The notes: generated by a model not told the origin, from the letters alone. DNA of 62,624 nt from a virus (IMGVR_UViG_3300023179_000109:1-62624); one strand, 5' to 3'. Positions 37,229-60,113 are shown, counted from the stretch's first letter. Made by a program: numbers and translations.

Positions 37229-37876
37229 TTATTCAATACACAAAATATCATTAATAATTTCTTTGCTGGAGAGAGAAGTCCAACATCTTGGGTGTTCATA
37301 TGACCAAAAAGTTTTCCAATAACCAAACCATAACACTCCTTCTTTTCTTGGGTCTACAGTCCTCCAGTCATTAGATGATTTAGGGTATCTACCAATTTTA
37401 TATATTTTATAAAAATCAATATCTTTTGTTAGATATTTCGTATTAAAACTATTGTTTAACTCATCAAACTTTGATTCAATGACAATTTTACAATTATGCA
37501 TTGTTTGATATTTTTTAATTTGTTCAATCCAAATTTCAGCTTCTTTGAAGTTTGAAGTATCTAAAACAAATTTCAATAATTTACCATTATCGTTATATCT
37601 GTGAGAAAATATTTTTTGTAATCCTGAATCTTCATTAAATCGGTAAACGTTAATTTCAAAATCAAAATAAAATTCTATTGGTAGATTAAAATATGAGTTA
37701 TTTCCTTTTCCAGGTTTAGTTGTTATATGATATGATTCCACAAATACAGGAGAATCATTATTTTTTTTAAATTCGTTAATTTCAACTAAATAATACGTTT
37801 CAGGACCATCAACATAAACTTTAATACCTGATTGAAAATTTAGTCTAATTTTTTCATTATTTATTTGTGTAAACAT
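37229..37876 (-). CDS. hypothetical protein
   Basis: ORF overlapping the carbamoyltransferase stop. Confidence 0.55.
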   Translation of the reverse strand: MFTQINNEKIRLNFQSGIKVYVDGPETYYLVEINEFKKNNDSPVFVESYHITTKPGKGNNSYFNLPIEFYFDFEINVYRFNEDSGLQKIFSHRYNDNGKLLKFVLDTSNFKEAEIWIEQIKKYQTMHNCKIVIESKFDELNNSFNTKYLTKDIDFYKIYKIGRYPKSSNDWRTVDPRKEGVLWFGYWKTFWSYEHPRCWTSLSSKEIINDILCIE

Positions 37877-39449
37877 AATTTTCAATAACAAGTTTATCTA
37901 TAATACCATTTTGTAGACTAATAAATGCATCTTCTGGGTTATCAATAATTGGCTGATTGTGTGAGTTAAATGATGTATTTAAAAGTACTGGTATTTTTGA
38001 AAGTTTATGATACTCGTTTAGTATTTCCCAAAATTTTGGGCAATTGTCTTTTTTAACTAATTGAGGTCTGGCGGTTTTATCAGATTTTTGAATCACAGCA
38101 GGAATTTTTTCAATCCATTCTTCTTTGGTTGGATAACAAATTGTCATAAATTCTGCACTATATTTTGATTTATTTCCTTCAAATATATCATCAAAATATT
38201 CTTCCATCACTATTGGTGCAAATGGCATTAATTCATATCTCTTTAGTCTTGTATTCAGTATTTCATGAGTACCAATATCCGTTGGTCTAACTAAAATACT
38301 TCTAGCACCAAGTGCTCTTGGTCCATATTCAAAACCATCTTGAAACCACCCAATAATTTTACCTTCATTTAAATCTTTGGCAATTGCGTTTGATTCATAA
38401 AATTCTTTATTAAAATCAAAATTTTTTGATATATTAAAAATTTGATAATCAGAATATTTTAATCCAAAATATAGGTTTTTTAATTTTTTTGGTTTTGTCC
38501 ATTCACCTAATTGTACTGCTTTGTAAATGCAGGCACCTAATGAAAGCCCCTCATCACCCATTGCAGGATAAATATAAATCTCATCAACCCAATCAAGTTC
38601 ATTTATCTTTTGATTTAATTTAACATTGGCAAACAATCCACCTGAAAAACATAATTTTTTGTATTCAGGAAACCTTATATGTAAATCGTTTAGAAATGAC
38701 AAAAACAAATCTTCTGTTATTTTTTGTAAATTGTATGAAAAAATTTCTCTTTTTGTTTTTGTGTCAAAAAAACCTTTTTGGTACATTGAATCAATAACAA
38801 GTTGGGTTTTTCCCGCGGTATTTGAGGGAAAAAATTTTAAGTTTTCATAATCAATGCATGAATTAAGAAACTTATATATTTTTTCATCATAGTAACCATT
38901 TGGCGCCATTCCCATTAGTTTCCCTTCATCCTTACACATTTTCCACGTGCCTTCAAACTTAGAATTGTGTCCCATTATACCATTTGTGCTAAATGCCCAC
39001 AAATGTGCTAAACTTCCTGTGTTACACATATCGTAACTGTATAATAAGTTCATTTTACCATCTTCACACATGTAGACCTTCATTACTGACTTATCTCCAC
39101 CACCATCATAAGAAATAGTTAGAACTTTTCCATCCATTCCACTTGTGAAATATGAACCATAACAATGAGCGTCGTGATGACTTACTCTTTCGTAATTGTT
39201 ATTTGTTATTTGGTTTGCGAATCTATCAGTCACAGGCTCAACAAATACCCTATGGTCGGAATCTAATATTTTTAAATCACAGTAGCTTTCAACAACTTTT
39301 GATGATAGTTCTGCAACCGCATCAAAATTATCTCCTGCTTTAATACGAGTAATTCTTTCTTCTTCAATACAACAAACAATTTCACCATCAATTACAAGTG
39401 ATGTTGCTGGACTGTGAGACCCACCAAAAAAACCATAAATTGAACTCAT
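37857..39449 (-). CDS. NodU/CmcH-family carbamoyltransferase
   Basis: EEERITRIK, HHDAH, DGGGD, EGKLMG, GPRALGARS, PFAP, LNTSFN. Confidence 0.92.
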   Translation of the reverse strand: MSSIYGFFGGSHSPATSLVIDGEIVCCIEEERITRIKAGDNFDAVAELSSKVVESYCDLKILDSDHRVFVEPVTDRFANQITNNNYERVSHHDAHCYGSYFTSGMDGKVLTISYDGGGDKSVMKVYMCEDGKMNLLYSYDMCNTGSLAHLWAFSTNGIMGHNSKFEGTWKMCKDEGKLMGMAPNGYYDEKIYKFLNSCIDYENLKFFPSNTAGKTQLVIDSMYQKGFFDTKTKREIFSYNLQKITEDLFLSFLNDLHIRFPEYKKLCFSGGLFANVKLNQKINELDWVDEIYIYPAMGDEGLSLGACIYKAVQLGEWTKPKKLKNLYFGLKYSDYQIFNISKNFDFNKEFYESNAIAKDLNEGKIIGWFQDGFEYGPRALGARSILVRPTDIGTHEILNTRLKRYELMPFAPIVMEEYFDDIFEGNKSKYSAEFMTICYPTKEEWIEKIPAVIQKSDKTARPQLVKKDNCPKFWEILNEYHKLSKIPVLLNTSFNSHNQPIIDNPEDAFISLQNGIIDKLVIENYVYTNK

Positions 39450-41119
39450 GTTGTCTTTGTAATTAAAACATTATTTAAAACTAAGAAATCCAATCCGTTT
39501 TCTATAAAACTTTTTATTGCGTCTTTAGGTGTTTCAACCATTGGTTCTCTTGGTCCATTGAAACTTGTATTGAGTAATACTGGTACACCAGTCTTTTCGT
39601 GGAATTTTTTAATTAACGAATAAAATCTTGGATTGTTTTTTTCGGTAACTGATTGATGTCTGGCAGAATAATCTATATGAGTTACTGCAGGGATTTTATT
39701 TCTCCAATCTTCTTTTACTGTTGTAGTTACTAACATATATGGTGAGTAAACATCAGATTCAAAAACTTCTGATTGATGTTCAAACAAAACAGCTGGAGCA
39801 AATGGTCTGTACCACTCTCTTTTCTTAATATCTGAATTAATATGTCCTGTCATCCAAGACTTAATTGGTGATGCAAGTATTGAACGGTTACCTAATGCTC
39901 TCGGACCAATTTCAGAACCTCCTTGGAACCAACCAATTACACGGTTTTGAGTTAACCAAAAAGAAACATCTTCAACTAATTTTTCAAAGTCATCATATTT
40001 TTCAAAAACTAAATGAGGAAATTCATTTAATGTTGAATTTATTTCCTTGTCAGAATAGGGTTTTCCTATATATGGACTTAAAGGTTCAACAACATCAATG
40101 TCAATAAGTTGTTGGTATGCGTACCACGCACATCCTAATGGGATTCCACTATCATCTGCTGGAGGAATGAAAAAACAATCTTCAAATAATCCTGAATTTA
40201 ATATTTTTTCATTTGAGTTACAGTTCAAGAATGAGCCGCCAGCAACACATATATTTTTAGAGTTAGTCAGTGTTTTTGCTTTCTCTGCAAGCATTAAAGA
40301 AACTCTCTCTTGTTCTCTTTGATAAATTCCCGCAACACAAGCTCTTGAGAAAAAATCTGAATTGTAATTAACTCTTGGATAGATTCTTTTGTTAGGGATA
40401 AAAATATCACCGTCTTTTTCAACAATAAAATATGGTGCTTCGTTTACAATATCTTGGTCAGCATATGATGCAAGACCCATAAGTTTACCCGCTGGCCACG
40501 TGTTATGGTTTGGTTCAAAGATTAATTGTAACGACCCTTCAGAATATACCGTACCAACGGAAACACCGTCTTCAGTTTCCAAAGGAACTGGCCACTTAAT
40601 CCATTTTTTGTAAACTTCAGTATATTCATTTTTTTTAATGTGATATATTGAAATTCCCTCACTCCAATCTTGACGAGTTTCTATTTTTTCATTATAGACA
40701 TCTTTATACCAAAGGGGTAGTTTATTAAGATGACTCAAAATACTACCAGACGCATCAGCAACAACAACCGCAGCTTCGTCAAAACCTGAGCTGAAGAAAG
40801 ATGAATATGCGTGAGCTAAATGGTGAGGTAAAAATTTGGTTTTATTTGTTAAATCAACTTTGAAATGTTTTCTCATTTGTTCGTCTACATCATCAACCAT
40901 TTCGGTTGTACTGTATACAAACAAATCAATATCTTTATAAGTTATTCCCAAATAATCTAAACAATAATTAATTGAATCATAAGGTATGGTTCCGCCCTGA
41001 TATGCGCCGTCGTGTTTTATTCTTGAAAGTCTTTCTTGGGTAATCCCCACGGCAACTTTTCCGTCTTCAATTATAACTGCACCCTTATCATGGCCAACAG
41101 AAAATCCTAATGTCCTCAT
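39446..41119 (-). CDS. NodU/CmcH-family carbamoyltransferase
   Basis: GHD, ERLSRIKH, HHLAHA, GKLMGLA, GPRALGNRS, RPFAP, LNTSFN. Confidence 0.93.
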   Translation of the reverse strand: MRTLGFSVGHDKGAVIIEDGKVAVGITQERLSRIKHDGAYQGGTIPYDSINYCLDYLGITYKDIDLFVYSTTEMVDDVDEQMRKHFKVDLTNKTKFLPHHLAHAYSSFFSSGFDEAAVVVADASGSILSHLNKLPLWYKDVYNEKIETRQDWSEGISIYHIKKNEYTEVYKKWIKWPVPLETEDGVSVGTVYSEGSLQLIFEPNHNTWPAGKLMGLASYADQDIVNEAPYFIVEKDGDIFIPNKRIYPRVNYNSDFFSRACVAGIYQREQERVSLMLAEKAKTLTNSKNICVAGGSFLNCNSNEKILNSGLFEDCFFIPPADDSGIPLGCAWYAYQQLIDIDVVEPLSPYIGKPYSDKEINSTLNEFPHLVFEKYDDFEKLVEDVSFWLTQNRVIGWFQGGSEIGPRALGNRSILASPIKSWMTGHINSDIKKREWYRPFAPAVLFEHQSEVFESDVYSPYMLVTTTVKEDWRNKIPAVTHIDYSARHQSVTEKNNPRFYSLIKKFHEKTGVPVLLNTSFNGPREPMVETPKDAIKSFIENGLDFLVLNNVLITKTT

Positions 41120-42762: not shown

Positions 42763-43443
42763 ATGAAAATCAAACAACTTATCCTTGCGGTGGCGGTAAC
42801 CGTAACAGTAGCATCTTGTACAAAACAGGACATTTCAACCCCTGAACAAGTTAGTCAGGTTCAAACTAACTCTGTCGCTGCAGTAAGTACAAACACAGTT
42901 CTAGAATCTACAAATGTTGCTTACATCTTTATTGAACCGAAAAATAAACAGAATCTTATTGTAAAATATCTTAAAGATTCGGTTTCTCATTCCGTTGGAA
43001 TTCCTTTCTTAGGTTTTAATATGGGTTACGGTATTTCTGCTACTAACAAAAATGATGTATTGAATTATATTAACTTAAAATATTGGTATAATGGTCAGTT
43101 ACCTCAAGTAAGAACTGTAAACATTTCCCAAACAAATTTTAAGATGGACTCTATTTCAATTGTAAACTCTTCTATCAATGATAATAGTTCTTGGGTTACA
43201 ATTTTGATTCCTGTATCTGCCATGAGTAATGATACCTACAGACAATCTCGTGTCACAATTGGTGGTACAGGTCTTAGAACCTCTGATGTCACAATGAATA
43301 GTACGATTCATGGATATACCTTTGACTACACAGGTAACTATCTTCCAAAGACAAGATATAGACTTTATACAACTTTTGTAAGTCCTACCGTAAGGTTTGA
43401 TTTAACAAAATCTGGATTTATTTACCTAAAAGGGTGTAACTAA
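42763..43443 (+). CDS. lipoprotein
   Basis: TVASC lipobox. Confidence 0.7.
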   Translation: MKIKQLILAVAVTVTVASCTKQDISTPEQVSQVQTNSVAAVSTNTVLESTNVAYIFIEPKNKQNLIVKYLKDSVSHSVGIPFLGFNMGYGISATNKNDVLNYINLKYWYNGQLPQVRTVNISQTNFKMDSISIVNSSINDNSSWVTILIPVSAMSNDTYRQSRVTIGGTGLRTSDVTMNSTIHGYTFDYTGNYLPKTRYRLYTTFVSPTVRFDLTKSGFIYLKGCN

Positions 43444-43478
43444 TTGACTTTGGAACATATTTATAATATTATTACACT

Positions 43479-43630
43479 ATGAGACATTTGAATTTAAATA
43501 CAGGAAACAGACCGACAACACCTAATGGTGATGCGGGCACTCTATGCTTAGATTCAGATACTGATGTTGGATAATTAAAAAATGAAGCCAAATATTAAAA
43601 CCCTGAATCTTGAAAGTTCGGGGTTTTTTT
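43479..43630 (+). promoter_or_regulatory. tRNA-array attenuator 1: leader peptide 43479-43574, antiterminator segment and terminator 43597-43630
   Basis: MRHLNLNTGNRPTTPNGDAGTLCLDSDTDVG*; AGATTCAG (43550-57) is complementary to CTGAATCT in the terminator 5' arm. Confidence 0.7.
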
Positions 43631-43650
43631 ATTACCTTTGTTTGAGAATT

Positions 43651-43723
43651 AGGGAAGTAGCGCAGTAGGTAGCGCACTTGGTTTGGGACCAAGGAGTCGC
43701 AGGTTCGAGCCCTGTCTTCCCTA
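43651..43723 (+). tRNA. tRNA-Pro(TGG)
   Basis: CTTGG-TTTGGGA-CCAAG anticodon arm. Confidence 0.93.
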
Positions 43724-43837
43724 CATATGAAAAAAGATATACATCCGTTTTGGAGTTTGACAACTCTATTGTTTACTTGTTTGGTGATTTTATTTTCACC
43801 ATTAATTTCTGGATTGTATCTTTGGATGTATGTTAGA

Positions 43838-43909
43838 GTCTCCTTAGCTCAGCGATAGAGCGATTCGCTGTTAACGAATAAGTCCCTGGTTTGAATCCAG
43901 GAGGGGACG
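43838..43909 (+). tRNA. tRNA-Asn(GTT)
   Basis: ATTCG-CTGTTAA-CGAAT; atypical D and T loops. Confidence 0.88.
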
Positions 43910-43914
43910 CAAAA

Positions 43915-43987
43915 GCGGGAGTAGCTCATTCGGTAGAGCGATAGCCTTCCAAGCTATAGGTGGCCAGTTCGAGCCTGGTCTCCCGCT
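43915..43987 (+). tRNA. tRNA-Gly(TCC)
   Basis: ATAGC-CTTCCAA-GCTAT. Confidence 0.95.
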
Positions 43988-44042
43988 CAAAGTGGATAAA
44001 ACGTGTAGTAACCACAGGAAAGGTACCTTTCACTACACTCCA

Positions 44043-44115
44043 GCGGAAGTAGCTCATTCGGTAGAGCACAACCTTGCCAAGGTTGGGGTGGCCAGTTCGA
44101 GCCTGGTCTTCCGCT
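44043..44115 (+). tRNA. tRNA-Gly(GCC)
   Basis: CAACC-TTGCCAA-GGTTG. Confidence 0.95.
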
Positions 44116-44230
44116 CATCTGGATACTAATGTGTAAGACAGAAGAGTATCATCGGTTGGAAACTTACATTTCACGAACCGAGGTGTGGGGACTGACCCAT
44201 CAGTTGGAATACCGCAAAGTTCCAATATTT

Positions 44231-44303
44231 GCCTCCTTAGCTCAGCAGGTAGAGCAACTGATTTGTAATCAGTAGGTCGTTGGTTCGATTCCGACAGGAG
44301 GCT
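44231..44303 (+). tRNA. tRNA-Thr(TGT)
   Basis: ACTGA-TTTGTAA-TCAGT. Confidence 0.95.
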
Positions 44304-44318
44304 CAAAAATTTTTATTT

Positions 44319-44552
44319 ATGAGTATGTTTGCGGCTTATTACGTTATATGCGTAATTTATTGTCTGTATCAATTGTTTAAAAACCTTAATAAAAGGTATA
44401 GTGATGACCCAACAGGTGCTTCACCTGAATTGGATACTATTATGGTTGTAATGATGGCTTGGGTTTTAGCACCGATTGATGTGTCTTTAACTTGGATTAG
44501 ATGGTACAAAGAGGCTGAAATTGCTAGAAGAAGACAAAATAAAGTTTTTTAA
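44319..44552 (+). CDS. small membrane protein
   Basis: true start likely MSMFAAYY after tRNA-Thr. Confidence 0.55.
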   Translation: MSMFAAYYVICVIYCLYQLFKNLNKRYSDDPTGASPELDTIMVVMMAWVLAPIDVSLTWIRWYKEAEIARRRQNKVF

Positions 44553-45130
44553 TGAATTACTCAGATACTCATAAAGTCATTTGGGCAACACCGATTAGGA
44601 CGGCGACTAGGTCTTGCAGACCAATTCAAGAATTTTTTGGATTTGATGTTGTTGGTAACCATGAATTAGAAATTCCAAAAAATAAAGAAGATTATTTTTT
44701 TGTTTTCAATACAAGAAATCCGTATACTAGAATGATTTCAATATATCATCTTTATTGTATACAATTTAAATTAGTTCCAAATAATTTTAAGATATGGATA
44801 ACAAAAAAGTTGGACGAAGAAGTGAATCTTCCCAACCAAACTTTAAATTATCAAATTTTTTTAAAGAAAAAAATTACTAAGACTCCTAATTTAATAATTA
44901 GATTAGAAAATTTGTATTCAGACGTTTTAGAACTACCATTTTTTGATAATAATTCTGACGAACTTTTTGATATATTCAATGATAATATTATTAAAAATGT
45001 TTATTCATCGGGATATGACTACAAAGAATATTATAATCAAGATTTAGCTGATTATGTTTATTCTTATTTAGAAGAAGATTTCGTATATTTTAATTACAAC
45101 AAAGACTCTTGGAAAAATGGCACACCCTAA
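44552..45130 (+). CDS. sulfotransferase family 2-like protein
   Basis: PIRTATRS (PKxA-like), RNPYTRMISIY, IIRLENL, EDFVYFNY. Confidence 0.65.
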   Translation: MNYSDTHKVIWATPIRTATRSCRPIQEFFGFDVVGNHELEIPKNKEDYFFVFNTRNPYTRMISIYHLYCIQFKLVPNNFKIWITKKLDEEVNLPNQTLNYQIFLKKKITKTPNLIIRLENLYSDVLELPFFDNNSDELFDIFNDNIIKNVYSSGYDYKEYYNQDLADYVYSYLEEDFVYFNYNKDSWKNGTP

Positions 45131-45464
45131 CGTACACGCAAAATCATCCGCCAAAAAATTCGGTGGAAAACCAGAAGACTATATCCATCTACATGAATGG
45201 TTAGATGAGACCAAAGGATGGTTTGGAGATTCTTTACACAGAATGTTTAGACATCATAGTGAAGGTATTTTTGAGATGGAAAAACGTTTTGGTCCTGAAT
45301 TCCTCAATAGTGATGGTAAAATAGTTTACACTAGATATGTTGGAGAACAACATGTTAAGGAAGATTGTAATAACTACATTCCATCCGCAAAAGAATGGGT
45401 CAATAATATTACAACAAACCAAAGACCCCAATGGATGACCAGAACACTTAAACTTGAAGACTAA
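45117..45464 (+). CDS. DUF6915-like protein
   Basis: MAHPNVHAKSSAKKFGG..EDY...HRMFRHHSEG...EQHVKED. Confidence 0.65.
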   Translation: MAHPNVHAKSSAKKFGGKPEDYIHLHEWLDETKGWFGDSLHRMFRHHSEGIFEMEKRFGPEFLNSDGKIVYTRYVGEQHVKEDCNNYIPSAKEWVNNITTNQRPQWMTRTLKLED

Positions 45465-45475
45465 TATTTATTGTT

Positions 45476-46219
45476 ATGAAAAGAAAAAAAGTGAATTCAT
45501 TTAATGTATTAACCCTTGAGGATAAACAATATCTTAGAAGAGTTTGTAGATATCTAGCATCTCTTGGAATGCAAGACGGAAGTATTGAGATGGATATTGA
45601 CAATGGTGCCGATTTTGATTTTAATGACATAGATTGGGAACATGAGGGTAGTCATTTTTCAAACAATTATAGTGCCGAAGTACCTGATGGTTTAATACCA
45701 ATATTGAAAAAAATAGGAGATTATATTCAAGAAAATGGTTTATTCCAAGAACCCGATGAAGAAGATTTAAATTACGAAAGAATTGATTTTGATATTGATT
45801 GTGAAAAATCAGAAATATCAGTAAACCATTGGTGGACATTTTACCAAAGAGGTGATGGTAATAGTATTGAATGGGATGGTGAAGAAGGAAAAGATATTTT
45901 TGAGGAATGGGAAAAAGATGGTGTTTTTGAAGACCTTGAGGTCCCAAATAATGGAATATTAACCATAAGTTACAATGGTTCTGGTGATTCAGGGTATATT
46001 GAAAGTAGTTTTAATGAAACTAATGATGGAGTACCTGCTGCGATGGAAGATTGGTGTTATAGTCAACTTGAAAATAACTTCGGTGGGTGGGAAATTAATG
46101 AAGGTTCAGATGGAGAATTTATATTTAACTTCCATGAAATGACGATTGAATTAAATCATACCTATAATGTAGAAGAAAATGCTCACGATACTATCTATGA
46201 AGAAAGTTTTGCCGAGTAA
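45476..46219 (+). CDS. acidic hypothetical protein (DUF6878-like C-terminus)
   Basis: YNGSGDSG...GWEINEGSDGEF. Confidence 0.55.
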   Translation: MKRKKVNSFNVLTLEDKQYLRRVCRYLASLGMQDGSIEMDIDNGADFDFNDIDWEHEGSHFSNNYSAEVPDGLIPILKKIGDYIQENGLFQEPDEEDLNYERIDFDIDCEKSEISVNHWWTFYQRGDGNSIEWDGEEGKDIFEEWEKDGVFEDLEVPNNGILTISYNGSGDSGYIESSFNETNDGVPAAMEDWCYSQLENNFGGWEINEGSDGEFIFNFHEMTIELNHTYNVEENAHDTIYEESFAE

Positions 46220-46260
46220 TTTTTTGATTTTCTAACTCAAATCCTTTATCTTTGTTTTAT

Positions 46261-46347
46261 ACCTTGGTGGCGAAATCGGTATACGCGCAAGACTTAAAAT
46301 CTTGTGGACAGAAAATGTCCGTGTGGGTTCAAGTCCCACCCGAGGTA
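46261..46347 (+). tRNA. tRNA-Leu(TAA)
   Basis: CAAGA-CTTAAAA-TCTTG, long variable arm. Confidence 0.95.
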
Positions 46348-46356
46348 CGTTTAATC

Positions 46357-46428
46357 GGTCCCGTAGTTAAATGGATATAACTACTCACTTCTAATGAGTA
46401 ATTCGTGGTTCGATTCCACGCGGGACTA
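46357..46428 (+). tRNA. tRNA-Arg(TCT)
   Basis: ACTCA-CTTCTAA-TGAGT. Confidence 0.93.
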
Positions 46429-46528
46429 CATATATCATATCTTCAGGTACCCGTACCGCTAACGTAGGGTTAAATAAGATACAATTTCGTGCTTGCGGGA
46501 AGTAGAATGCCTGTCTGATGTGATTAAT

Positions 46529-46609
46529 ACCCCGATGGCGTAATGGTAGCCGCGAATGCCTTAGGAGCATTTGTCGTAAGACGTGTCGGTTCGAGTCCGA
46601 CTTGGGGTA
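46529..46609 (+). tRNA. tRNA-Leu(TAG)
   Basis: AATGC-CTTAGGA-GCATT, long variable arm. Confidence 0.93.
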
Positions 46610-46649
46610 CACTTGATACTTTAATTAAAAAGTATATATTTATAATAAC

Positions 46650-46809
46650 ATGAACACTACAATGCGTCATATAGTCTTTAGTAAACAACAAGAAATTTGT
46701 TGGTATGAGACTATGCCTTGTAGTTCAGACGTGTAAATGATTTGGTAATTCCTGAAGAGAGTTATATATACAGACCCTGAACGACAGAAATGAAGTTCGG
46801 GGTTTTTTT
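46650..46809 (+). promoter_or_regulatory. tRNA-array attenuator 2: leader peptide 46650-46736, antiterminator segment and terminator 46772-46809
   Basis: MNTTMRHIVFSKQQEICWYETMPCSSDV*; GTTCAG (46723-28) is complementary to CTGAAC in the terminator 5' arm. Confidence 0.8.
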
Positions 46810-46848
46810 ATTTGGTTCTTTGAAATATTGGTTGTAAATTTGCTAAAT

Positions 46849-46920
46849 GCTCGGTTCGACTATCGGTTAGGTCATCAGGTTTTCATCCTGAAAAGACGGG
46901 TTCGATTCCCGTACCGAGTA
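46849..46920 (+). tRNA. tRNA-Glu(TTC)
   Basis: TCAGG-TTTTCAT-CCTGA. Confidence 0.93.
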
Positions 46921-47016
46921 CAAGATGATGGCATAAGAGAGGACGAATTCCGAAAGGATAAGGTTACTAATCCCTGCCGTAAACGCATTGAGAGAGTCAA
47001 TGGTGTCATCATTTAT

Positions 47017-47089
47017 AGTCTCTTAGCTCAGTTGGAAGAGTACTTGGCTTACATCCAAGGTGTCGTAGGTTCGATTCCTACAGGGACTA
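47017..47089 (+). tRNA. tRNA-Val(TAC)
   Basis: CTTGG-CTTACAT-CCAAG. Confidence 0.93.
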
Positions 47090-47099
47090 CAAAAAATGA

Positions 47100-47160
47100 C
47101 AAAGTCGGAAGTAAAACCCGTCCAAAGTCAGAAGTAAAAACAAGACAAAATCGGAAGTTA
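47100..47160 (+). repeat. three imperfect direct repeats, period 23 nt
   Basis: CAAAGTCGGAAGTAAAA / CAAAGTCAGAAGTAAAA / CAAAATCGGAAGTTA. Confidence 0.7.
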
Positions 47161-47375
47161 TGAAATATATTTTTAGAGGACATACTGTTTTTGAATATAA
47201 AGCAGATGATAAAAGGGATAAAGTAGTTCAAGGTAAAATTCATGATGCAATTCCAGCGTTTGATTTTTGTCATATGATTCCTGAGGACTATAAATTGTTA
47301 GGAGAATTTTTCAACACAGTTTATAGACACACTCAGGGAGAAGATGTACCTTTGGAAGATATTGAAGTGTATTAA
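47160..47375 (+). CDS. hypothetical protein inside the tRNA array
   Basis: ORF fills the spacer between tRNA-Val and tRNA-Phe. Confidence 0.55.
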   Translation: MKYIFRGHTVFEYKADDKRDKVVQGKIHDAIPAFDFCHMIPEDYKLLGEFFNTVYRHTQGEDVPLEDIEVY

Positions 47376-47376
47376 T

Positions 47377-47449
47377 GGTGACGTAGCTCAGTTGGTAGAG
47401 CACTTGCCTGAAGAGCAAGGTGTCGTCAGTTCGATTCTGACCGTTACCA
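47377..47449 (+). tRNA. tRNA-Phe(GAA)
   Basis: CTTGC-CTGAAGA-GCAAG. Confidence 0.93.
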
Positions 47450-47454
47450 CAACA

Positions 47455-47528
47455 GACCTTGTAGCTCAGTTGGTTAGAGCACTTCACTTTTAATGAAGGA
47501 GTCCCGAGTTCGAATCTCGGCGGGGTCA
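47455..47528 (+). tRNA. tRNA-Lys(TTT)
   Basis: CTTCA-CTTTTAA-TGAAG. Confidence 0.95.
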
Positions 47529-47543
47529 CAAAAAATATATATT

Positions 47544-47777
47544 ATGAAAGCAATACTTGAATTTAATTTACCTGACGACCAGCAAGATTTTGATTTGGCA
47601 AATAGTGGTCTCAAATTTTGGAGTGTACTATGGGAATTGGACCAGTCTTTAAGGACTAAGACAAAATATGCGTCTGATGATTTACCGAAAGATAAGTATG
47701 ATGCTTATCAAGAAATAAGGGATGAACTTCGTGAGTTAATGTCAGATAATAATCTTAGTTTTGATATGGTTAAATAA
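47544..47777 (+). CDS. hypothetical phage protein
   Basis: MKAILEFNLPDD start after tRNA-Lys. Confidence 0.6.
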   Translation: MKAILEFNLPDDQQDFDLANSGLKFWSVLWELDQSLRTKTKYASDDLPKDKYDAYQEIRDELRELMSDNNLSFDMVK

Positions 47778-47780
47778 AAA

Positions 47781-48005
47781 ATGGATATTATGGAAAGAAC
47801 ATTTAATAGTGATGATTTGTCTTGGATTGCATTCAGTTTAATAGAATATAGTCGCTCAATGGATTATGAAGGTGATTTAAGTGATTGTGGTAATGAAATT
47901 GGGAATATGGTTGGGAGTAAATATAAAAATATGACTGAGGGTGAGATTGAAGATTTTATCACAGGAATAAGACATGGGATTTCATTAACAAATGGAACCC
48001 ATTAA
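47781..48005 (+). CDS. hypothetical protein
   Basis: ORF track. Confidence 0.55.
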   Translation: MDIMERTFNSDDLSWIAFSLIEYSRSMDYEGDLSDCGNEIGNMVGSKYKNMTEGEIEDFITGIRHGISLTNGTH

Positions 48006-48010
48006 AATAA

Positions 48011-48082
48011 GGTCAGTTGGCCGAGTGGCTTAGGCGATAGTCTGCAAAACTATTTACACAGGTTCGAATCCTGTACTGACCT
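48011..48082 (+). tRNA. tRNA-Cys(GCA)
   Basis: ATAGT-CTGCAAA-ACTAT, U73. Confidence 0.94.
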
Positions 48083-48083
48083 C

Positions 48084-48203
48084 ATGAGAAAAAAACAAAT
48101 AGACCAAATGGTCAAGGCAATTAAAAAGGTGACGAAGAAAGCCTGTAAGAATAAGAAATCTGCTCGTAAGTTTCTTGTTAAGGCTGGAATTATAAAAAAG
48201 TAA
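48084..48203 (+). CDS. very basic 39-aa peptide
   Basis: MRKKQIDQMVKAIKKVTKKACKNKKSARKFLVKAGIIKK* exactly fills the Cys-Trp spacer. Confidence 0.45.
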   Translation: MRKKQIDQMVKAIKKVTKKACKNKKSARKFLVKAGIIKK

Positions 48204-48204
48204 C

Positions 48205-48277
48205 GCGTGTGTAGCTCAATTGGTAGAGTACTAGTCTCCAAAACTAGGAGTTTCAGGTTCGAGTCCTGACATGCGTG
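48205..48277 (+). tRNA. tRNA-Trp(CCA)
   Basis: CTAGT-CTCCAAA-ACTAG. Confidence 0.92.
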
Positions 48278-48423
48278 CAAAGGTTGATTGGGGAATGATA
48301 CAGGTTAGCCTGTTGGTGGCGCTCAAAAAGCATTGGCCGACTGTATCGGAGTTTAAACCATCATTAGTAATGCCAATCATAAAAGGGGTTGTCCACTGAA
48401 CCATCTTCTCCTTTCCTGTTTTT

Positions 48424-48506
48424 GGGAGTGTTGTCAATGCGGTAATTGGCACCTGACTGTAAATCAGGAGTCTTAGACTTCGGCGGTTCGAATCCGTCCA
48501 CTCTCA
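48424..48506 (+). tRNA. tRNA-Tyr(GTA)
   Basis: CCTGA-CTGTAAA-TCAGG, variable arm. Confidence 0.92.
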
Positions 48507-48513
48507 CAATTTT

Positions 48514-48587
48514 GGACTTGTAGCTCATTCGGTTAGAGCGGCACACTCATAATGTGAAGGTAATAGGTTCGATTCCTATCTGGTCCA
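48514..48587 (+). tRNA. tRNA(CAT), probably Ile2 (lysidine-modified, reads ATA)
   Basis: loop CTCATAA with an Ile2-like GGACTTGTAGCTCA body. Confidence 0.8.
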
Positions 48588-48593
48588 CAATTT

Positions 48594-48664
48594 TATCCTC
48601 TGGTGTAACGGTAACACAATTGGTTTTGGTCCAATTATTTAAGGTTCGAATCCTTAGGGGATAA
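48594..48664 (+). tRNA. tRNA-Gln(TTG)
   Basis: ATTGG-TTTTGGT-CCAAT. Confidence 0.92.
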
Positions 48665-48668
48665 CATC

Positions 48669-48740
48669 GGTTCCATAGTTTAATGGAAAAACATTTCGCT
48701 ACGGACGAAAAGAGTTGGGGTTCGAATCCCTATGGGACCT
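48669..48740 (+). tRNA. tRNA-Arg(ACG)
   Basis: TTTCG-CTACGGA-CGAAA. Confidence 0.92.
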
Positions 48741-48746
48741 CAAAAT

Positions 48747-48818
48747 TGCGGTGTAGTTCAGTGGTAGAACACTTGATTCATATCCAAGTTGTCAGAAGTT
48801 CAATTCTTCTCACCGCAA
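48747..48818 (+). tRNA. tRNA-Met(CAT)
   Basis: CTTGA-TTCATAT-CCAAG with one mismatch. Confidence 0.82.
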
Positions 48819-48823
48819 CACAT

Positions 48824-48895
48824 GGTGGCTATAGCCTAATGGTAGGGCGGAAGCTTGTGGCGCTTCATGTGAGAGTTCGATTCTCTCTAGTCACA
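48824..48895 (+). tRNA. tRNA-His(GTG)
   Basis: GAAGC-TTGTGGC-GCTTC, encoded G-1. Confidence 0.9.
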
Positions 48896-49025
48896 CAATG
48901 AGGTAGAGAAGGATTCAGTAGAAACTGATGCGGCCGTCGCACAATATCGGGGTTGGAGCACAGGGCTCCTATACGTGATGTAACCCGAGGCTAAACCCCT
49001 TTTGGGTGCTTCTACCTTATTTTAT

Positions 49026-49099
49026 TGGAGTATAGCTCAGTTGGTTAGAGCGTCATCCTGATACGGTGAATGTCGGTGGTTCGAGCCCACCTACTCCAA
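49026..49099 (+). tRNA. tRNA-Ile(GAT)
   Basis: TCATC-CTGATAC-GGTGA. Confidence 0.92.
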
Positions 49100-49101
49100 C
49101 A

Positions 49102-49335
49102 ATGAAAACTAAAATACACGTAAATCAACACCATATAAGGTCAAATAAGACTAAAGGGACTAACTTACCTGTAATTACCATAAAACAGGGGAGAAAGAAC
49201 ACTTATTGTAATGAGGTTGAAATTTTAGGACCAAGTAAAATTACTTATTGTGGTTTTGGCGATGAAAAACCTATTTTGAGTTGTGGCGCAAGGGTTGTTA
49301 TTGAAACTGAAAGTGAAATAAACATTATAAGTTAG
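49102..49335 (+). CDS. hypothetical phage protein
   Basis: MKTKIHVNQHHIRSN...LSCGARV.IET. Confidence 0.65.
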   Translation: MKTKIHVNQHHIRSNKTKGTNLPVITIKQGRKNTYCNEVEILGPSKITYCGFGDEKPILSCGARVVIETESEINIIS

Positions 49336-49422
49336 GAGAGTTGGGAGAGCGGTTTAATCCAACAGTTTGCTAAACTGTCGTACTTCTAAAGGGTACCGCT
49401 GGTTCAAATCCAGCACTCTCCG
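49335..49422 (+). tRNA. tRNA-Ser(GCT)
   Basis: ACAGT-TTGCTAA-ACTGT, long variable arm, G73. Confidence 0.94.
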
Positions 49423-49518
49423 CAAAATAAATTGTTATAGAAATTGACTAATTAGATAAGTTTTTATATATTTATAGTCTAATAAGTTATTTAAACATTA
49501 ACCTAAAAAAAAAAGAAC

Positions 49519-49698
49519 ATGAAAAAAATCCTTGCTATCTTGTCAATCGTTGCATTGGCATCTTGCGGAACAGGAACATCAACTGAAGTAAAAACTGATT
49601 CAACTGCTGTTGTGGCTGATTCAACTAAAGTAGATTCTACAGTTGTTTCTGTAGATTCAGCAAAAGCTGAAGCTCCTAAGGCAGAAGAAGTTAAATAA
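49519..49698 (+). CDS. small lipoprotein (59 aa, not in the ORF track)
   Basis: MKKILAILSIVALASCGTG...DSTAVVADSTKVDSTVVSVDSAK. Confidence 0.75.
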   Translation: MKKILAILSIVALASCGTGTSTEVKTDSTAVVADSTKVDSTVVSVDSAKAEAPKAEEVK

Positions 49699-49720: not shown

Positions 49721-49745
49721 AACCCACCAATTGGTGGGTTTTTTT
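49721..49745. terminator. terminator between convergent genes
   Basis: AACCCACC-AATT-GGTGGGTT plus T tract. Confidence 0.75.
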
Positions 49746-59716: not shown

Positions 59717-60113
59717 TGGTGGAGATGACGGGAGTCGAACCCGTGTCTTACAAAATTAACATAAACAGACTACACGTTTAGTACAACATCGTTTCTCAAT
59801 GTTCCGAAATATTAGATTTGATATATGTGGGAAACCAATCTACAAACAACCTGGTCTCAGAGTTATTTTAAAGGAGCTCTGACCTGTGACCCCTATAGCG
59901 GACTTCTGTTCCTAGGTTATATGTCCTAACCGACCCGAGTAGTTGTTGCTTATATTAAGCTACAACTGGAGCTTCTTCAGCGATTAAGCCTAAAGTAGCC
60001 ATTTTAGCAAAAGTATTGCCGTTTGAATTTTTTCACCGTGGATTTAAGTCATAGATGAATTCTGACTACGTGCCTGCGTACCCTAACTATTGCAATCAAT
60101 ACCAAGCATCCCC
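59717..60113 (-). ncRNA. ssrA: tmRNA
   Basis: 5' GGGGATG, 3' GGTTCGACTCCCGTCATCTCCACCA with G3-U70 Ala identity, internal tag ORF 60020-59955. Confidence 0.92.

What the first reader, a model, noticed from the sequence alone, without database searches (positions are those of the whole stretch)
46650..49422. Codon-checklist leader peptide and attenuator controlling a 14-tRNA operon
Seen: a 28-codon ORF (46650-46736) precedes a terminator and then 14 tRNAs. Codons 5-20 read ATG CGT CAT ATA GTC TTT AGT AAA CAA CAA GAA ATT TGT TGG TAT GAG. These 16 consecutive codons cover every downstream tRNA: Met, Arg(ACG), His, Ile2(CAT), Val, Phe, Ser(GCT), Lys, Gln, Glu, Ile(GAT), Cys, Trp and Tyr. Split families match the isoacceptor present: CGT rather than AGA, AGT rather than TCN, and both ATA and ATT. 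The one imperfect match is GTC against Val(TAC). GTTCAG lies 14 nt after the last sensor codon and can pair with the terminator 5' arm (CTGAAC). Established: this is the geometry of trp/his/ilv-type ribosome-mediated attenuation. Inference: stalling on any depleted or cleaved host tRNA frees the antiterminator and induces the phage's replacement tRNA set, a multiplexed sensor of tRNA loss that could counter anticodon-nuclease defences. I know of no described equivalent for phage tRNA arrays.
Basis: partly seen in the sequence, partly recalled or inferred. Interest (0 to 1): 0.96.

Follow-up and report, generated by a model that had tools for sequence, protein, structure and literature searches.

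The report
Leader-peptide attenuators controlling phage tRNA arrays
A lake-water giant-phage fragment carries two short leader genes, each followed by a switchable terminator and a block of tRNA genes and each spelled in the codons that its own block of tRNAs reads, which suggests the phage measures tRNA supply with a ribosome and makes more tRNA only when decoding is slow.

Summary

- **Two modules, not one.** The window holds 22 tRNA genes in two sub-arrays. Each sub-array has its own promoter-like site, short leader ORF, intrinsic terminator and antiterminator.
- **Each leader matches its own sub-array.**
  - Leader C (46650-46736) covers all 13 amino-acid types of its 14 tRNAs.
  - Arg is AGA in leader A (tRNA-Arg tct) and CGT in leader C (tRNA-Arg acg).
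- **The design recurs in relatives.** It appears in dozens of related uncultured phage contigs, in other partitions. One example is a leader with 8 Leu and 4 AGA codons in front of Leu-Arg-Leu tRNAs.
- **The RNA geometry fits attenuation.** Folding gives a trp-like four-region arrangement. The antiterminator pairing is kept in relatives, with some compensatory changes.
- **Weaknesses.**
  - Recent tRNA gains and losses are tracked only loosely (17 same, 8 opposite, 15 unchanged).
  - Translation and conditional termination are not shown experimentally.
  - The anticodon-nuclease counter-defence idea is untested.
- **Novelty.** My six literature searches found no description of leader-peptide attenuators in front of tRNA genes.

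Verdict: a real, apparently undescribed variant of ribosome-mediated attenuation, and of high interest.

The parts
43444..43472 (+). promoter-like site of module A
   Evidence: Sigma-70-type scan gives 10 of 12 matches. A variant of the Bacteroidota sigma-A -7 box lies at 43456-43463 (read). Such a box is found within 35 nt upstream of the ATG in 27 of 43 distinct modules, against 5.4% of random windows.
43479..43574 (+). leader ORF A, 31 codons
   Evidence: Of its 30 codons after the start, 21 code for Pro, Asn, Gly, Thr, Leu or Arg. All 6 types are covered, and 14 such codons run consecutively. The ORF is conserved in relatives.
43486..43497 (+). region 1 of module A (pairs with region 2 when no ribosome is present)
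   Evidence: Taken from the minimum-free-energy fold of 43477-43630, z = -3.9. In relatives 68.5% of cells are paired, so support is only moderate.
43548..43559 (+). region 2 of module A; its core 43550-43557 is the antiterminator strand
   Evidence: It lies 14-23 nt before the stop codon.
43597..43630 (+). intrinsic terminator of module A (regions 3 and 4); 43603-43610 also pairs with region 2
   Evidence: Terminator scan: 12 pairs, loop of 7, then a T-run. Folds. In 14 relatives 95.8% of cells are paired. The antiterminator is 87.3% paired, against at most 46% when the partner is slid.
43651..46610 (+). tRNA sub-array A: Pro, Asn, Gly(tcc), Gly(gcc), Thr, Leu(taa), Arg(tct), Leu(tag), with three protein ORFs in between
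   Evidence: ARAGORN, Rfam, ORF list.
46613..46640 (+). promoter-like site of module C
   Evidence: Sigma-70-type scan gives 10 of 12 matches. A -7-box-like motif ends 7 nt before the ATG.
   Evidence: Of its 27 codons after the start, 21 are in the set. All 13 types are covered, and 16 such codons run consecutively.
46651..46662 (+). region 1 of module C (codons 1-5; pairs with region 2)
   Evidence: Fold of 46648-46812, z = -4.4. In 12 relatives 84.9% of cells are paired. This pairing accounts for the conserved out-of-set codons 2-4.
46664..46716 (+). inner hairpin within the sensor codons (a possible pause hairpin; this role is inferred)
   Evidence: In relatives 83.5% of cells are paired, and three pairs change on both sides.
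46718..46728 (+). region 2 of module C (antiterminator strand)
   Evidence: Pairs with 46777-46787 when the terminator's 3' arm is absent. In relatives 93.3% of cells are paired, against at most 50% when slid.
46772..46809 (+). intrinsic terminator of module C (regions 3 and 4)
   Evidence: In 12 relatives 100% of cells are paired.
46849..49423 (+). tRNA sub-array C: 14 tRNAs with five small ORFs in between
   Evidence: ARAGORN, Rfam, ORF list.

Best explanation
Each tRNA sub-array is a transcription unit governed by a ribosome-mediated (leader-peptide) attenuator. Steps 1-5 below are an inferred mechanism; what the sequences show directly is listed under evidence.

1. Transcription starts at a Bacteroidota-type promoter a few bases before a 22-37-codon leader ORF.
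2. The middle of that ORF is a list of the codons read by the tRNAs encoded downstream.
3. If those codons are decoded quickly, the ribosome reaches the stop codon and covers region 2. The terminator (regions 3:4) then forms, and little tRNA precursor is made.
4. If any listed codon is decoded slowly, because too little charged cognate tRNA is present (host plus phage), the ribosome lags. Region 2 is then free to pair with the terminator's 5' arm, and RNA polymerase reads through into the tRNA genes.
5. Without any ribosome, region 1 pairs with region 2 and termination is the default.

The result would be a closed feedback loop. Each block of phage tRNAs is transcribed only while decoding of its own codons is limiting. 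The two blocks (three in some relatives) are controlled separately.
For: **Anatomy in the window (shown)**
- There are two paralogous modules, each with a promoter-like site, a leader ORF, a terminator and tRNAs.

**Leader-to-array match (shown)**
- Leader A has 21 of 30 codons in its own set, covers 6 of 6 types, and has a run of 14.
- Leader C has 21 of 27 codons in its own set, covers 13 of 13 types, and has a run of 16.
- Crossed over, each leader has only 6 codons in the other's set, with runs of 2 and 3.
- Fisher test on amino acids exclusive to one sub-array: [[19,4],[5,20]], p = 3e-5.
- Arg is AGA (twice) in leader A, whose array has tRNA-Arg(tct). It is CGT in leader C, whose array has tRNA-Arg(acg). 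The window's long ORFs use AGA 345 times and CGT 54 times.

**Relatives (shown)**
- The terminator pattern is followed within 300 nt by a tRNA in 56 of 74 matches in viral contigs. In bacterial and archaeal genome loci the figure is 1 of 81.
- A leader prefers its own sub-array's exclusive amino acids in 34 of 38 rows.
- Over 42 non-redundant leaders, arrays with only Arg(tct) show 24 AGR and 3 CGN codons. Arrays with only Arg(acg) show 7 and 19. Fisher p = 5e-6, not corrected for relatedness.

**Other partitions that obey the same rule**
- A 22-codon leader with 8 Leu and 4 AGA codons stands before exactly Leu(taa)-Arg(tct)-Leu(tag).
- In that three-module phage (L087), leader A has 1 Leu and 0 Arg codons. 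In the window, leader A has 5 and 2.
- In L089, a leader with a different terminator contains nine consecutive Thr/Ala/Asp/Arg/Glu codons and stands before Glu, Ala, Asp, Arg(tct) and Thr tRNAs. The next leader covers all 16 amino-acid types of its 19 tRNAs, with only two Thr codons outside the set.
- In L131, thirteen consecutive Leu/Ser/His/Tyr codons stand before His, Ser(gct), Ser(tga), Tyr and four Leu tRNAs. Both Ser codon classes and four Leu codon types are used.
- In L096, an Asn tRNA sits inside the C array and leader C has 4 Asn codons, against 2 in its sister phage.

**Coding constraint**
- In family A, 36 of 38 gap runs inside the ORF are multiples of three, against 14 of 30 after the stop.
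- The sensor part of family C has no gaps.

**RNA switch**
- Full leaders fold with z = -3.9 and -4.4 into 1:2 plus 3:4.
- With the 3' arm removed, 2:3 forms.
- The 2:3 helix is 87% and 93% paired in relatives, against at most 50% when the partner is slid. Two pairs in each family change on both sides, and 0 of 500 shuffles reach the covariation score.
- The best leader-to-5'-arm duplex lies within -25 to +12 of the stop codon in 43 of 44 modules. This includes the module with the unrelated terminator.

**Host context**
- SD-like motifs precede 2 of 48 long ORFs.
- A -7-box-like motif lies upstream of 27 of 43 leaders, against 5.4% of random windows.
- PMC9723704 (passages read) places that box at -12 to -5. 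It also reports clues for leader-peptide attenuation in a flavobacterium.
Against: - Nothing shows that the leaders are translated or that termination is conditional.
- The RNA-library contigs of relatives that cover leader regions could be DNA carry-over, and they show no transcript ends.
- Recent evolution tracks poorly. In nine sister pairs there are 17 contrasts in the expected direction, 8 opposite and 15 unchanged (one-sided sign test p = 0.054). Family A alone gives 2 expected, 3 opposite and 7 unchanged.
- Clear counter-examples exist.
  - L006 keeps Val, Phe, Glu, Tyr, Ile and Ser codons with only Cys, Trp, Met, Gln and His tRNAs downstream.
  - L096 keeps most of the list with only four tRNAs.
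  - The window's leader A keeps Asp and Ala codons although no Asp or Ala tRNA is in the window.
- Most amino acids appear only once or twice in a leader, so sensitivity to any single tRNA may be low.
- Ser codon class does not follow the Ser isoacceptor (p = 0.27).
- The antiterminators are short: 6-10 pairs, duplex energies of -8 to -16 kcal/mol, and z beyond -2 in only 57% of modules.
- The compensatory changes come from few independent events.
- The 1:2 helix of family A is only 68.5% paired.
- Two ORF-plus-terminator pairs of another terminator type do not match the tRNAs they precede (L084 third module, L092 second module).
Confidence: 0.8

Rival explanations
1. A general translation-capacity sensor. 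The attenuator is real, but it reports overall elongation speed or ribosome availability during infection, not the supply of individual tRNAs. On this view the match to the downstream tRNAs is historical or only loosely maintained.
For: - Most amino acids occur once or twice per leader.
- Leaders keep codons after the matching tRNA gene is lost (L006, L096, and the window's Asp and Ala codons).
- Sister-pair tracking is marginal.
Against: - A general sensor gives no reason for two or three leaders in one genome to use nearly disjoint codon sets that match their own sub-arrays (34 of 38 rows).
- It gives no reason for AGA against CGT to follow the Arg isoacceptor.
- It gives no reason for a Leu/Arg-only leader in front of Leu-Arg-Leu tRNAs.
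Confidence: 0.12
2. The small ORFs encode functional micro-peptides, or are conserved only as RNA. On this view the terminators are ordinary operon boundaries between tRNA blocks, with no conditional readthrough.
For: - The termini of the leaders are conserved.
- The terminators are strong and would work constitutively.
- No expression data are available.
Against: - A strong terminator placed between a promoter and its only downstream genes makes sense only if it can be bypassed.
- At sensor positions residues change radically while staying within the set, for example Lys, His, Thr or Gln at one column.
- In one clade the conserved 3' tail is read in a different frame, so it is conserved as RNA and not as peptide.
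- The conserved ends coincide with regions 1 and 2 of the fold.
- The antiterminator covaries with the terminator's 5' arm and loop.
Confidence: 0.05
3. Direct, ribosome-free sensing of tRNA by codon-anticodon pairing, in the manner of a T-box.
For: The leader displays the codons cognate to the regulated tRNAs. T-box RNAs read a tRNA anticodon with a specifier codon (recalled knowledge).
Against: - No T-box or other Rfam family matches the leader regions at E up to 1.
- An ATG start, an in-frame stop and frame-preserving indels are conserved.
- The position of the stop codon relative to region 2 is conserved. That matters only if a ribosome reads the ORF.
Confidence: 0.02
4. Chance resemblance.
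For: The choices of codon window and of tRNA set were made after looking at the sequence.
Against: - See the chance statistics in the observation check.
- A second module in the same window obeys the same rule.
- At least four further partitions obey it in other phages.
Confidence: 0.01

Closest known systems
Ribosome-mediated attenuators of amino-acid biosynthetic operons (trp, his, leu, thr, ilv and phe leaders of Proteobacteria). Recalled textbook knowledge; PMC3082878 was read only in one unrelated passage.
   Same: - A short leader ORF carries regulatory codons.
- The RNA has four regions with mutually exclusive 1:2, 2:3 and 3:4 pairings.
- An intrinsic terminator lies before the structural genes.
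- The stop codon is placed so that a ribosome that finishes the ORF masks region 2.
- The thr and ilv leaders already sense two or three amino acids.
   Different: - The regulated genes are tRNAs, not biosynthetic enzymes, so the product itself is what the ribosome senses.
- The leader lists up to 13-16 different amino acids, mostly once or twice each, instead of runs of one.
- Codon choice follows the isoacceptor (AGA against CGT).
- The system is phage-encoded.
- One array carries two or three modules with complementary lists.
- No Rfam leader family matches.
The pheM leader of the pheST operon (phenylalanyl-tRNA synthetase) in E. coli. Recalled.
   Same: Leader-peptide attenuation controls a component of the translation apparatus, not a biosynthetic pathway.
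   Different: It senses one amino acid and regulates a synthetase, not tRNA genes. My recollection of a Phe-rich leader before the E. coli tRNA-Phe gene pheV was not borne out: no such ORF lies upstream of pheV in K-12.
T-box riboswitches. Recalled.
   Same: They are conditional terminators that respond to the state of a specific tRNA through its codon.
   Different: They need no ribosome, use one specifier codon, regulate synthetases and amino-acid genes, and have a conserved T-box sequence. No match was found here.
Phage tRNA clusters viewed as codon compensation or as counter-defence against tRNA-cleaving systems (PMC10264068 and PMC11555353; only the search listing and the start of each abstract were seen).
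   Same: Large phage-encoded tRNA sets that could replace depleted or cleaved host tRNAs.
   Different: As far as I saw, those works concern what the tRNAs do, not how their transcription is controlled. No leader or attenuator is mentioned in the text I saw.

Membership tests
Leader-peptide (ribosome-mediated) transcription attenuator | A short ORF directly upstream, enriched in codons cognate to the regulated function | tested here: met
   In-set codons: 21 of 30 and 21 of 27. Coverage: 6 of 6 and 13 of 13 types.
Leader-peptide (ribosome-mediated) transcription attenuator | An intrinsic terminator between the leader and the structural genes | tested here: met
   In relatives 95.8% and 100% of cells are paired.
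Leader-peptide (ribosome-mediated) transcription attenuator | An antiterminator that shares bases with the terminator's 5' arm | tested here: met
   Paired in 87.3% and 93.3% of cells, against at most 50% when slid. Two pairs per family change on both sides. The location is consistent in 43 of 44 modules.
Leader-peptide (ribosome-mediated) transcription attenuator | An upstream region 1 that sequesters region 2 when no ribosome is present | tested here: inconclusive
   Predicted in both minimum-free-energy folds. It is 84.9% paired in family C but only 68.5% in family A, with little covariation.
Leader-peptide (ribosome-mediated) transcription attenuator | The leader is translated, and readthrough rises when cognate charged tRNA is scarce | not testable with these tools
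   Only indirect support: frame-preserving indels (36 of 38) and conserved start and stop codons. The RNA-library contigs are uninformative.
Leader-peptide (ribosome-mediated) transcription attenuator | The regulated genes are amino-acid biosynthesis or synthetase genes (all described members, as I recall) | tested here: not met
   The downstream genes are tRNAs and a few small ORFs. This is the respect in which the system is a new variant.
Rfam leader families (His, Leu, Thr, Trp, Phe leaders) | A match to the covariance model | tested here: not met
   No such family is listed at E up to 1 in 43300-49600.
T-box riboswitch | Specifier loop and T-box motif (Rfam model) | tested here: not met
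   No match at E up to 1.
Phage tRNA counter-defence against anticodon nucleases | The tRNAs resist or replace cleaved host tRNAs, and are induced on cleavage | not tested
   No host, no defence system and no cleavage data are available. Anticodon-loop comparison with host tRNAs was not possible because the host is unknown.

The most novel reading that the evidence does not exclude
The modules form a ribosome-read tRNA homeostat that resolves individual isoacceptors. Each phage tRNA sub-operon is switched on by slow decoding of exactly the codons its own tRNAs read. The phage therefore tops up, block by block, whichever tRNAs the infected cell lacks. That would include tRNAs destroyed by host anticodon nucleases, which would make the array an inducible counter-defence and not a constitutive supplement.
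Probability: 0.3. Interest if true: 0.95.

Novelty: new variant of a known kind. Interest (0 to 1): 0.9.

Why it matters
How phage tRNA genes are regulated is essentially unknown. Debate has centred on why phages carry them: codon compensation or defence evasion.

A leader whose codon list mirrors the tRNAs behind it would be the first case, to my knowledge, of tRNA genes under leader-peptide attenuation. It would also be the most multiplexed attenuator described, sensing up to 16 amino acids against the three I recall as the known maximum.

It offers three things:
- **A direct functional readout.** The phage itself declares which codons it considers limiting, which makes the purpose of phage tRNAs testable.
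- **A sequence signature.** It can be used to search other phages and bacteria for the same logic.
- **A compact natural part.** It could be used to build sensors of the supply of a chosen tRNA.

It also shows that classical attenuation works in phages of SD-less Bacteroidota-type hosts.

Tried and rejected
**Earlier findings.** A second call sent in the same turn returned a form error. No earlier findings were seen.

**Cultured relatives.** None were found.
- The 703-aa and 247-aa proteins have no tblastn match in the phage collection.
- DNA of the leader region matched phage records only over tRNA genes.
- The carbamoyltransferase matches cyanophage genes at about 32% identity, which says nothing about the host.

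**Recalled precedent.** I recalled an attenuator-like Phe leader before E. coli pheV. The region upstream of pheV in K-12 holds no such ORF, so I dropped it.

**Expression.**
- The run search found the stretch in lake and freshwater DNA runs. RNA runs held only 5-7% of the sampled words.
- Laying four RNA runs gave contigs of relatives (90-95% alike) over 43463-43575, 43511-43643 and 46661-46813.
- Contigs show no transcript ends and DNA carry-over is possible, so I make no claim of transcription or termination.

**Ser codon class against Ser isoacceptor.** Not significant (p = 0.27). Several Ser codons lie in region 2 and are constrained by the RNA.

**Ile2 identity of a CAT tRNA.** Pairwise identities to tRNA-Ile(gat) were 53 of 77 and 46 of 79. 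This does not decide the question.

**treekit independent_pairs on presence or absence.**
- Too few pairs differed in the leader trait to be informative, and the output was cut.
- I replaced it with codon-count contrasts in nine sister pairs chosen by hand on the tree.
- Rows left out of those pairs were L033, L053, L009 and L025.

**Collinearity of leader codon order with tRNA gene order.** The mean z is 0.99 and 8 of 44 leaders have P < 0.05, mostly related family C leaders. The window's own leaders give P = 0.16-0.28. This is a weak hint only.

**Module detection.**
- My first terminator regular expression missed variant terminators.
- Two later rules found them.
- The rule 'longest ATG ORF ending before the terminator' chose a wrong frame in L098 and an over-long start in L086. 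I corrected both by homology.
- Two ORF-plus-terminator pairs of another terminator type (L084 third module, L092 second module) do not match their tRNAs. I dropped them but kept them in the 38 rows.

**Supplements.** Supplementary files of papers were not opened. The tables of PMC9723704 listing its candidate attenuators could bear on whether flavobacterial hosts hold anything similar.

**Literature searches for a prior description.** Searches found none. The library lacks most subscription journals.

Full report
**What is in the window**

The window is a whole IMG/VR virus record of 62,624 bases, estimated 23% complete. It is therefore a fragment of a very large phage. Complete relatives measure 294-317 kb.

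ARAGORN finds 22 tRNA genes on the + strand between 43651 and 49423, and a tmRNA on the - strand. Rfam confirms all 22 tRNAs.

Its codons 5-20 read as listed. Behind it lie a hairpin with a T-run (about 46772-46809) and 14 tRNAs.

- In front of the first tRNA (Pro, 43651) lies a 31-codon ORF at 43479-43574.
- The two leaders are paralogous. They share their first residues after the sensor-independent start, and their acidic tails.
- Each leader is preceded within 10-40 bases by a promoter-like site.
- The eight tRNAs behind leader A are Pro, Asn, Gly (two), Thr, Leu(taa), Arg(tct) and Leu(tag).
- Codons 4-17 of leader A are drawn only from those six amino acids.

**Is it more than chance?**

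| Leader | Codons in own set | Types covered | Longest in-set run |
|---|---|---|---|
| A | 21 of 30 | 6 of 6 | 14 |
| C | 21 of 27 | 13 of 13 | 16 |

- Crossed over, each leader has only 6 codons in the other's set, with runs of 2 and 3.
- For leader C, full coverage of its set occurs in 0 of 13,655 equally long windows of the window's long-ORF translations. It occurs in 3.5e-4 of random peptides of that composition.
- For leader A, an in-set count of 21 or more occurs in 83 of 13,508 such windows and in 8.5e-5 of random peptides.
- Of 415 small ATG ORFs in the window, only leader C and its nested start cover set C.
- Counting only amino acids whose tRNA lies in just one sub-array gives 19 against 4 for leader A, and 5 against 20 for leader C. 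Fisher p = 3e-5.
- Arg is AGA (twice) in leader A and CGT in leader C. This matches tRNA-Arg(tct) and tRNA-Arg(acg). The phage's long ORFs prefer AGA 345 to 54.

**Relatives**

- A protein encoded inside the array brought four related loci.
- The terminator pattern brought 73 loci from viral contigs. Of 74 matches, 56 have a + strand tRNA within 300 nt downstream.
- The same pattern in bacterial and archaeal genomes gave 81 matches in the loci returned. Only one is followed by a tRNA, so the motif by itself is not tied to tRNAs.
- I enlarged 19 loci from 19 of the 20 records G001-G020 and mapped modules with a composition-blind rule.
- Both leaders are conserved as ORFs everywhere.

Other architectures obey the same rule:

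- **Three-module phages.** These insert a 22-codon leader with 8 Leu codons (5 TTA, 2 CTT, 1 CTA) and 4 AGA codons in front of exactly Leu(taa), Arg(tct) and Leu(tag). In such a phage (L087), leader A has 1 Leu and no Arg codon. The window's leader A, whose sub-array includes those tRNAs, has 5 and 2.
- **L089 partitions differently.**
  - Its first leader has an unrelated terminator and nine consecutive Thr/Ala/Asp/Arg/Glu codons. It precedes Glu, Ala, Asp, Arg(tct) and Thr tRNAs.
  - Its next leader covers all 16 amino-acid types of its 19 tRNAs. Only two Thr codons fall outside the set.
- **L131.**
  - This is the single tRNA-linked hit in the genome collection: a 375-kb contig of a Bacteroidota MAG with phage-like neighbouring genes (my reading of the ORF translations; no family search was run on them).
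  - It has thirteen consecutive Leu/Ser/His/Tyr codons before His, Ser(gct), Ser(tga), Tyr and four Leu tRNAs.
  - Both Ser codon classes and four Leu codon types are used.

Summary figures:

- Over all multi-module genomes, a leader prefers the amino acids exclusive to its own sub-array in 34 of 38 rows.
- The four misses fall into three cases.
  - Two are ORFs before terminators of another type.
  - One is the Leu/Arg leader, for which Arg is counted as shared.
  - One is the first leader of L089, whose set has only five members.
- Over 42 non-redundant leaders, the Arg codon class follows the isoacceptor: 24:3 against 7:19, p = 5e-6, not corrected for relatedness.

**How well do leaders track recent change?** Only loosely.

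- I built a tree of the 247-aa array protein and compared nine sister pairs.
- For amino acids whose tRNA is present in one sister only, the leader's codon count differs in the expected direction 17 times. It differs in the opposite direction 8 times and is unchanged 15 times (one-sided sign test p = 0.054).
- Family C gives 15, 5 and 8. Family A gives 2, 3 and 7.
- Good cases:
  - An Asn tRNA inserted in the C array of L096 goes with 4 Asn codons, against 2 in the sister.
  - Loss of Glu goes with loss of Glu codons in L083.
  - Loss of Arg(acg) and Lys goes with Arg-to-Gln and Lys-to-His changes in L005.
- Bad cases:
  - L006 and L096 keep most of the list with only five and four tRNAs left.
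  - The window's leader A keeps Asp and Ala codons. Relatives have Asp and Ala tRNAs in that sub-array, but the window has none.
- The match is therefore ancient and strong between module types. It decays slowly after tRNA loss. That would be expected if the leader senses the total pool of host plus phage tRNAs.

**The RNA switch**

- Full-length leaders fold far better than shuffles (z = -3.9 and -4.4; 0 of 200 shuffles as good). The fold is region 1 paired with region 2, followed by the terminator.
- With the terminator's 3' arm removed, region 2 pairs with the 5' arm.
  - In module A this is eight pairs (43550-57 with 43603-10).
  - In module C it is ten pairs with one mismatch (46718-28 with 46777-87).
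- The two paralogues differ by a compensatory A-U to G-C change at the same position (read).
- In 14 family A and 12 family C sequences the antiterminator is paired in 87.3% and 93.3% of cells, against at most 50% when the partner is slid.
  - Two pairs in each family change on both sides.
  - No shuffle of 500 reaches the covariation score.
  - These changes come from few clades.
- Across 44 non-redundant modules of about ten types, the best duplex between leader and 5' arm falls within -25 to +12 of the stop codon in 43. The module with the unrelated terminator is among them.
- In module C, region 1 covers codons 1-5. This accounts for the conserved out-of-set codons 2-4.
- In one clade the 3' tail of leader C is read in a different frame while its nucleotides are conserved. 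The tail therefore matters as RNA and the middle as codons.
- Gap runs inside the family A ORF are multiples of three in 36 of 38 cases, against 14 of 30 after the stop.

**Host context**

- SD-like motifs precede only 2 of 48 long ORFs.
- A variant of the Bacteroidota sigma-A -7 box lies within 35 nt of the start codon in 27 of 43 distinct modules (strict consensus in 12). Random windows give 5.4% and 2.8%.
- PMC9723704 (passages read) places that box at -12 to -5. It also reports clues for leader-peptide attenuation before amino-acid operons in Flavobacterium psychrophilum.
- The 5' untranslated regions would be 0-15 nt long.
- DNA runs that hold the stretch are from lake and freshwater metagenomes of several studies.
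- The host is inferred to be a freshwater member of the Bacteroidota. This is not shown.

**Most likely mechanism**

This is classical ribosome-mediated attenuation applied to tRNA genes.

- Fast decoding of the listed codons carries the ribosome to the stop codon, where it masks region 2 and the terminator forms.
- Slow decoding of any listed codon leaves region 2 free to block the terminator, and the tRNA block is transcribed.
- Without translation, 1:2 pairing gives termination.

Shown: the anatomy, the leader-to-array match, its recurrence in independent partitions, and conservation of the alternative pairings. Inferred: translation, coupling, the response to charged-tRNA levels, and any link to host tRNA-cleaving defences.

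**Comparison with what is known**

- It works like the trp, his, leu, thr and ilv attenuators and meets their structural criteria.
- It differs in the regulated product (tRNAs), in the breadth of the list (up to 16 amino acids), in isoacceptor-specific codon choice, and in being modular and phage-borne.
- No Rfam leader family or T-box matches.
- Six literature searches found no description of a leader-peptide attenuator before tRNA genes. The library lacks most subscription journals.
- My recalled E. coli pheV precedent failed on inspection.

**Verdict**

The attenuator interpretation is supported as far as sequence analysis can go (confidence 0.8). The counter-defence role is open. The system is a new variant of a known kind, and of high interest.

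Noticed in passing
window 46430-46528, 46922-47016, 48279-48423: Conserved, structured-looking spacers lie between tRNA genes: Arg(tct) to Leu(tag), Glu to Val, and Trp to Tyr. They recur at the same places in several relatives (gaps printed). No Rfam family matches them at E up to 1. They may be processing elements or small RNAs.
   Followed up: partly
window 59717-60113 (-): The phage encodes a tmRNA with a short tag peptide. A phage whose attenuators rely on stalled ribosomes also carries a ribosome-rescue RNA. Any connection is speculative.
   Followed up: no
window 37857-41119 (-): Two tandem Nol-like carbamoyltransferase genes (PHROG 1601; E = 1e-104 and 2e-86). The nearest phage matches are cyanophage genes at about 32% identity.
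   Followed up: partly
L131 4444-5409 and 6322-7617: A 375-kb contig of a Bacteroidota MAG carries a leader of Leu, Ser, His and Tyr codons before His, Ser, Ser, Tyr and Leu tRNAs. A 431-aa ORF that by eye resembles a class I (Leu-type) aminoacyl-tRNA synthetase lies between the Leu tRNAs. Whether the contig is a phage or a chromosome was not settled.
   Followed up: partly
window 46219-46261, compared with L087, L009, L025 and L053: Relatives carry a third leader-terminator module (Leu/Arg leader) between the 247-aa ORF and tRNA-Leu(taa). In the window only 41 bases lie there, so that module is absent and the Leu-Arg-Leu tRNAs fall under leader A.
   Followed up: yes
all modules: The order of codons in a leader tends weakly to follow the order of the tRNA genes. 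The mean z is 0.99 and 8 of 44 leaders have P < 0.05, mostly related family C leaders. The window's own leaders are not significant. No reason for this is known.
   Followed up: partly
L009 7063, L080 9257, L084 15281, L087 11043, L094 11373 (0-based start offsets on each locus's array strand, as printed): A second, different conserved terminator type stands before the last tRNAs (Ile or Ser) of several arrays. It has no matching leader ORF. It may be the end of an inserted protein gene.
   Followed up: no
window 49721-49740: A bidirectional terminator-like palindrome lies after a small lipoprotein-like ORF (49519-49698). It probably closes the tRNA operon.
   Followed up: no
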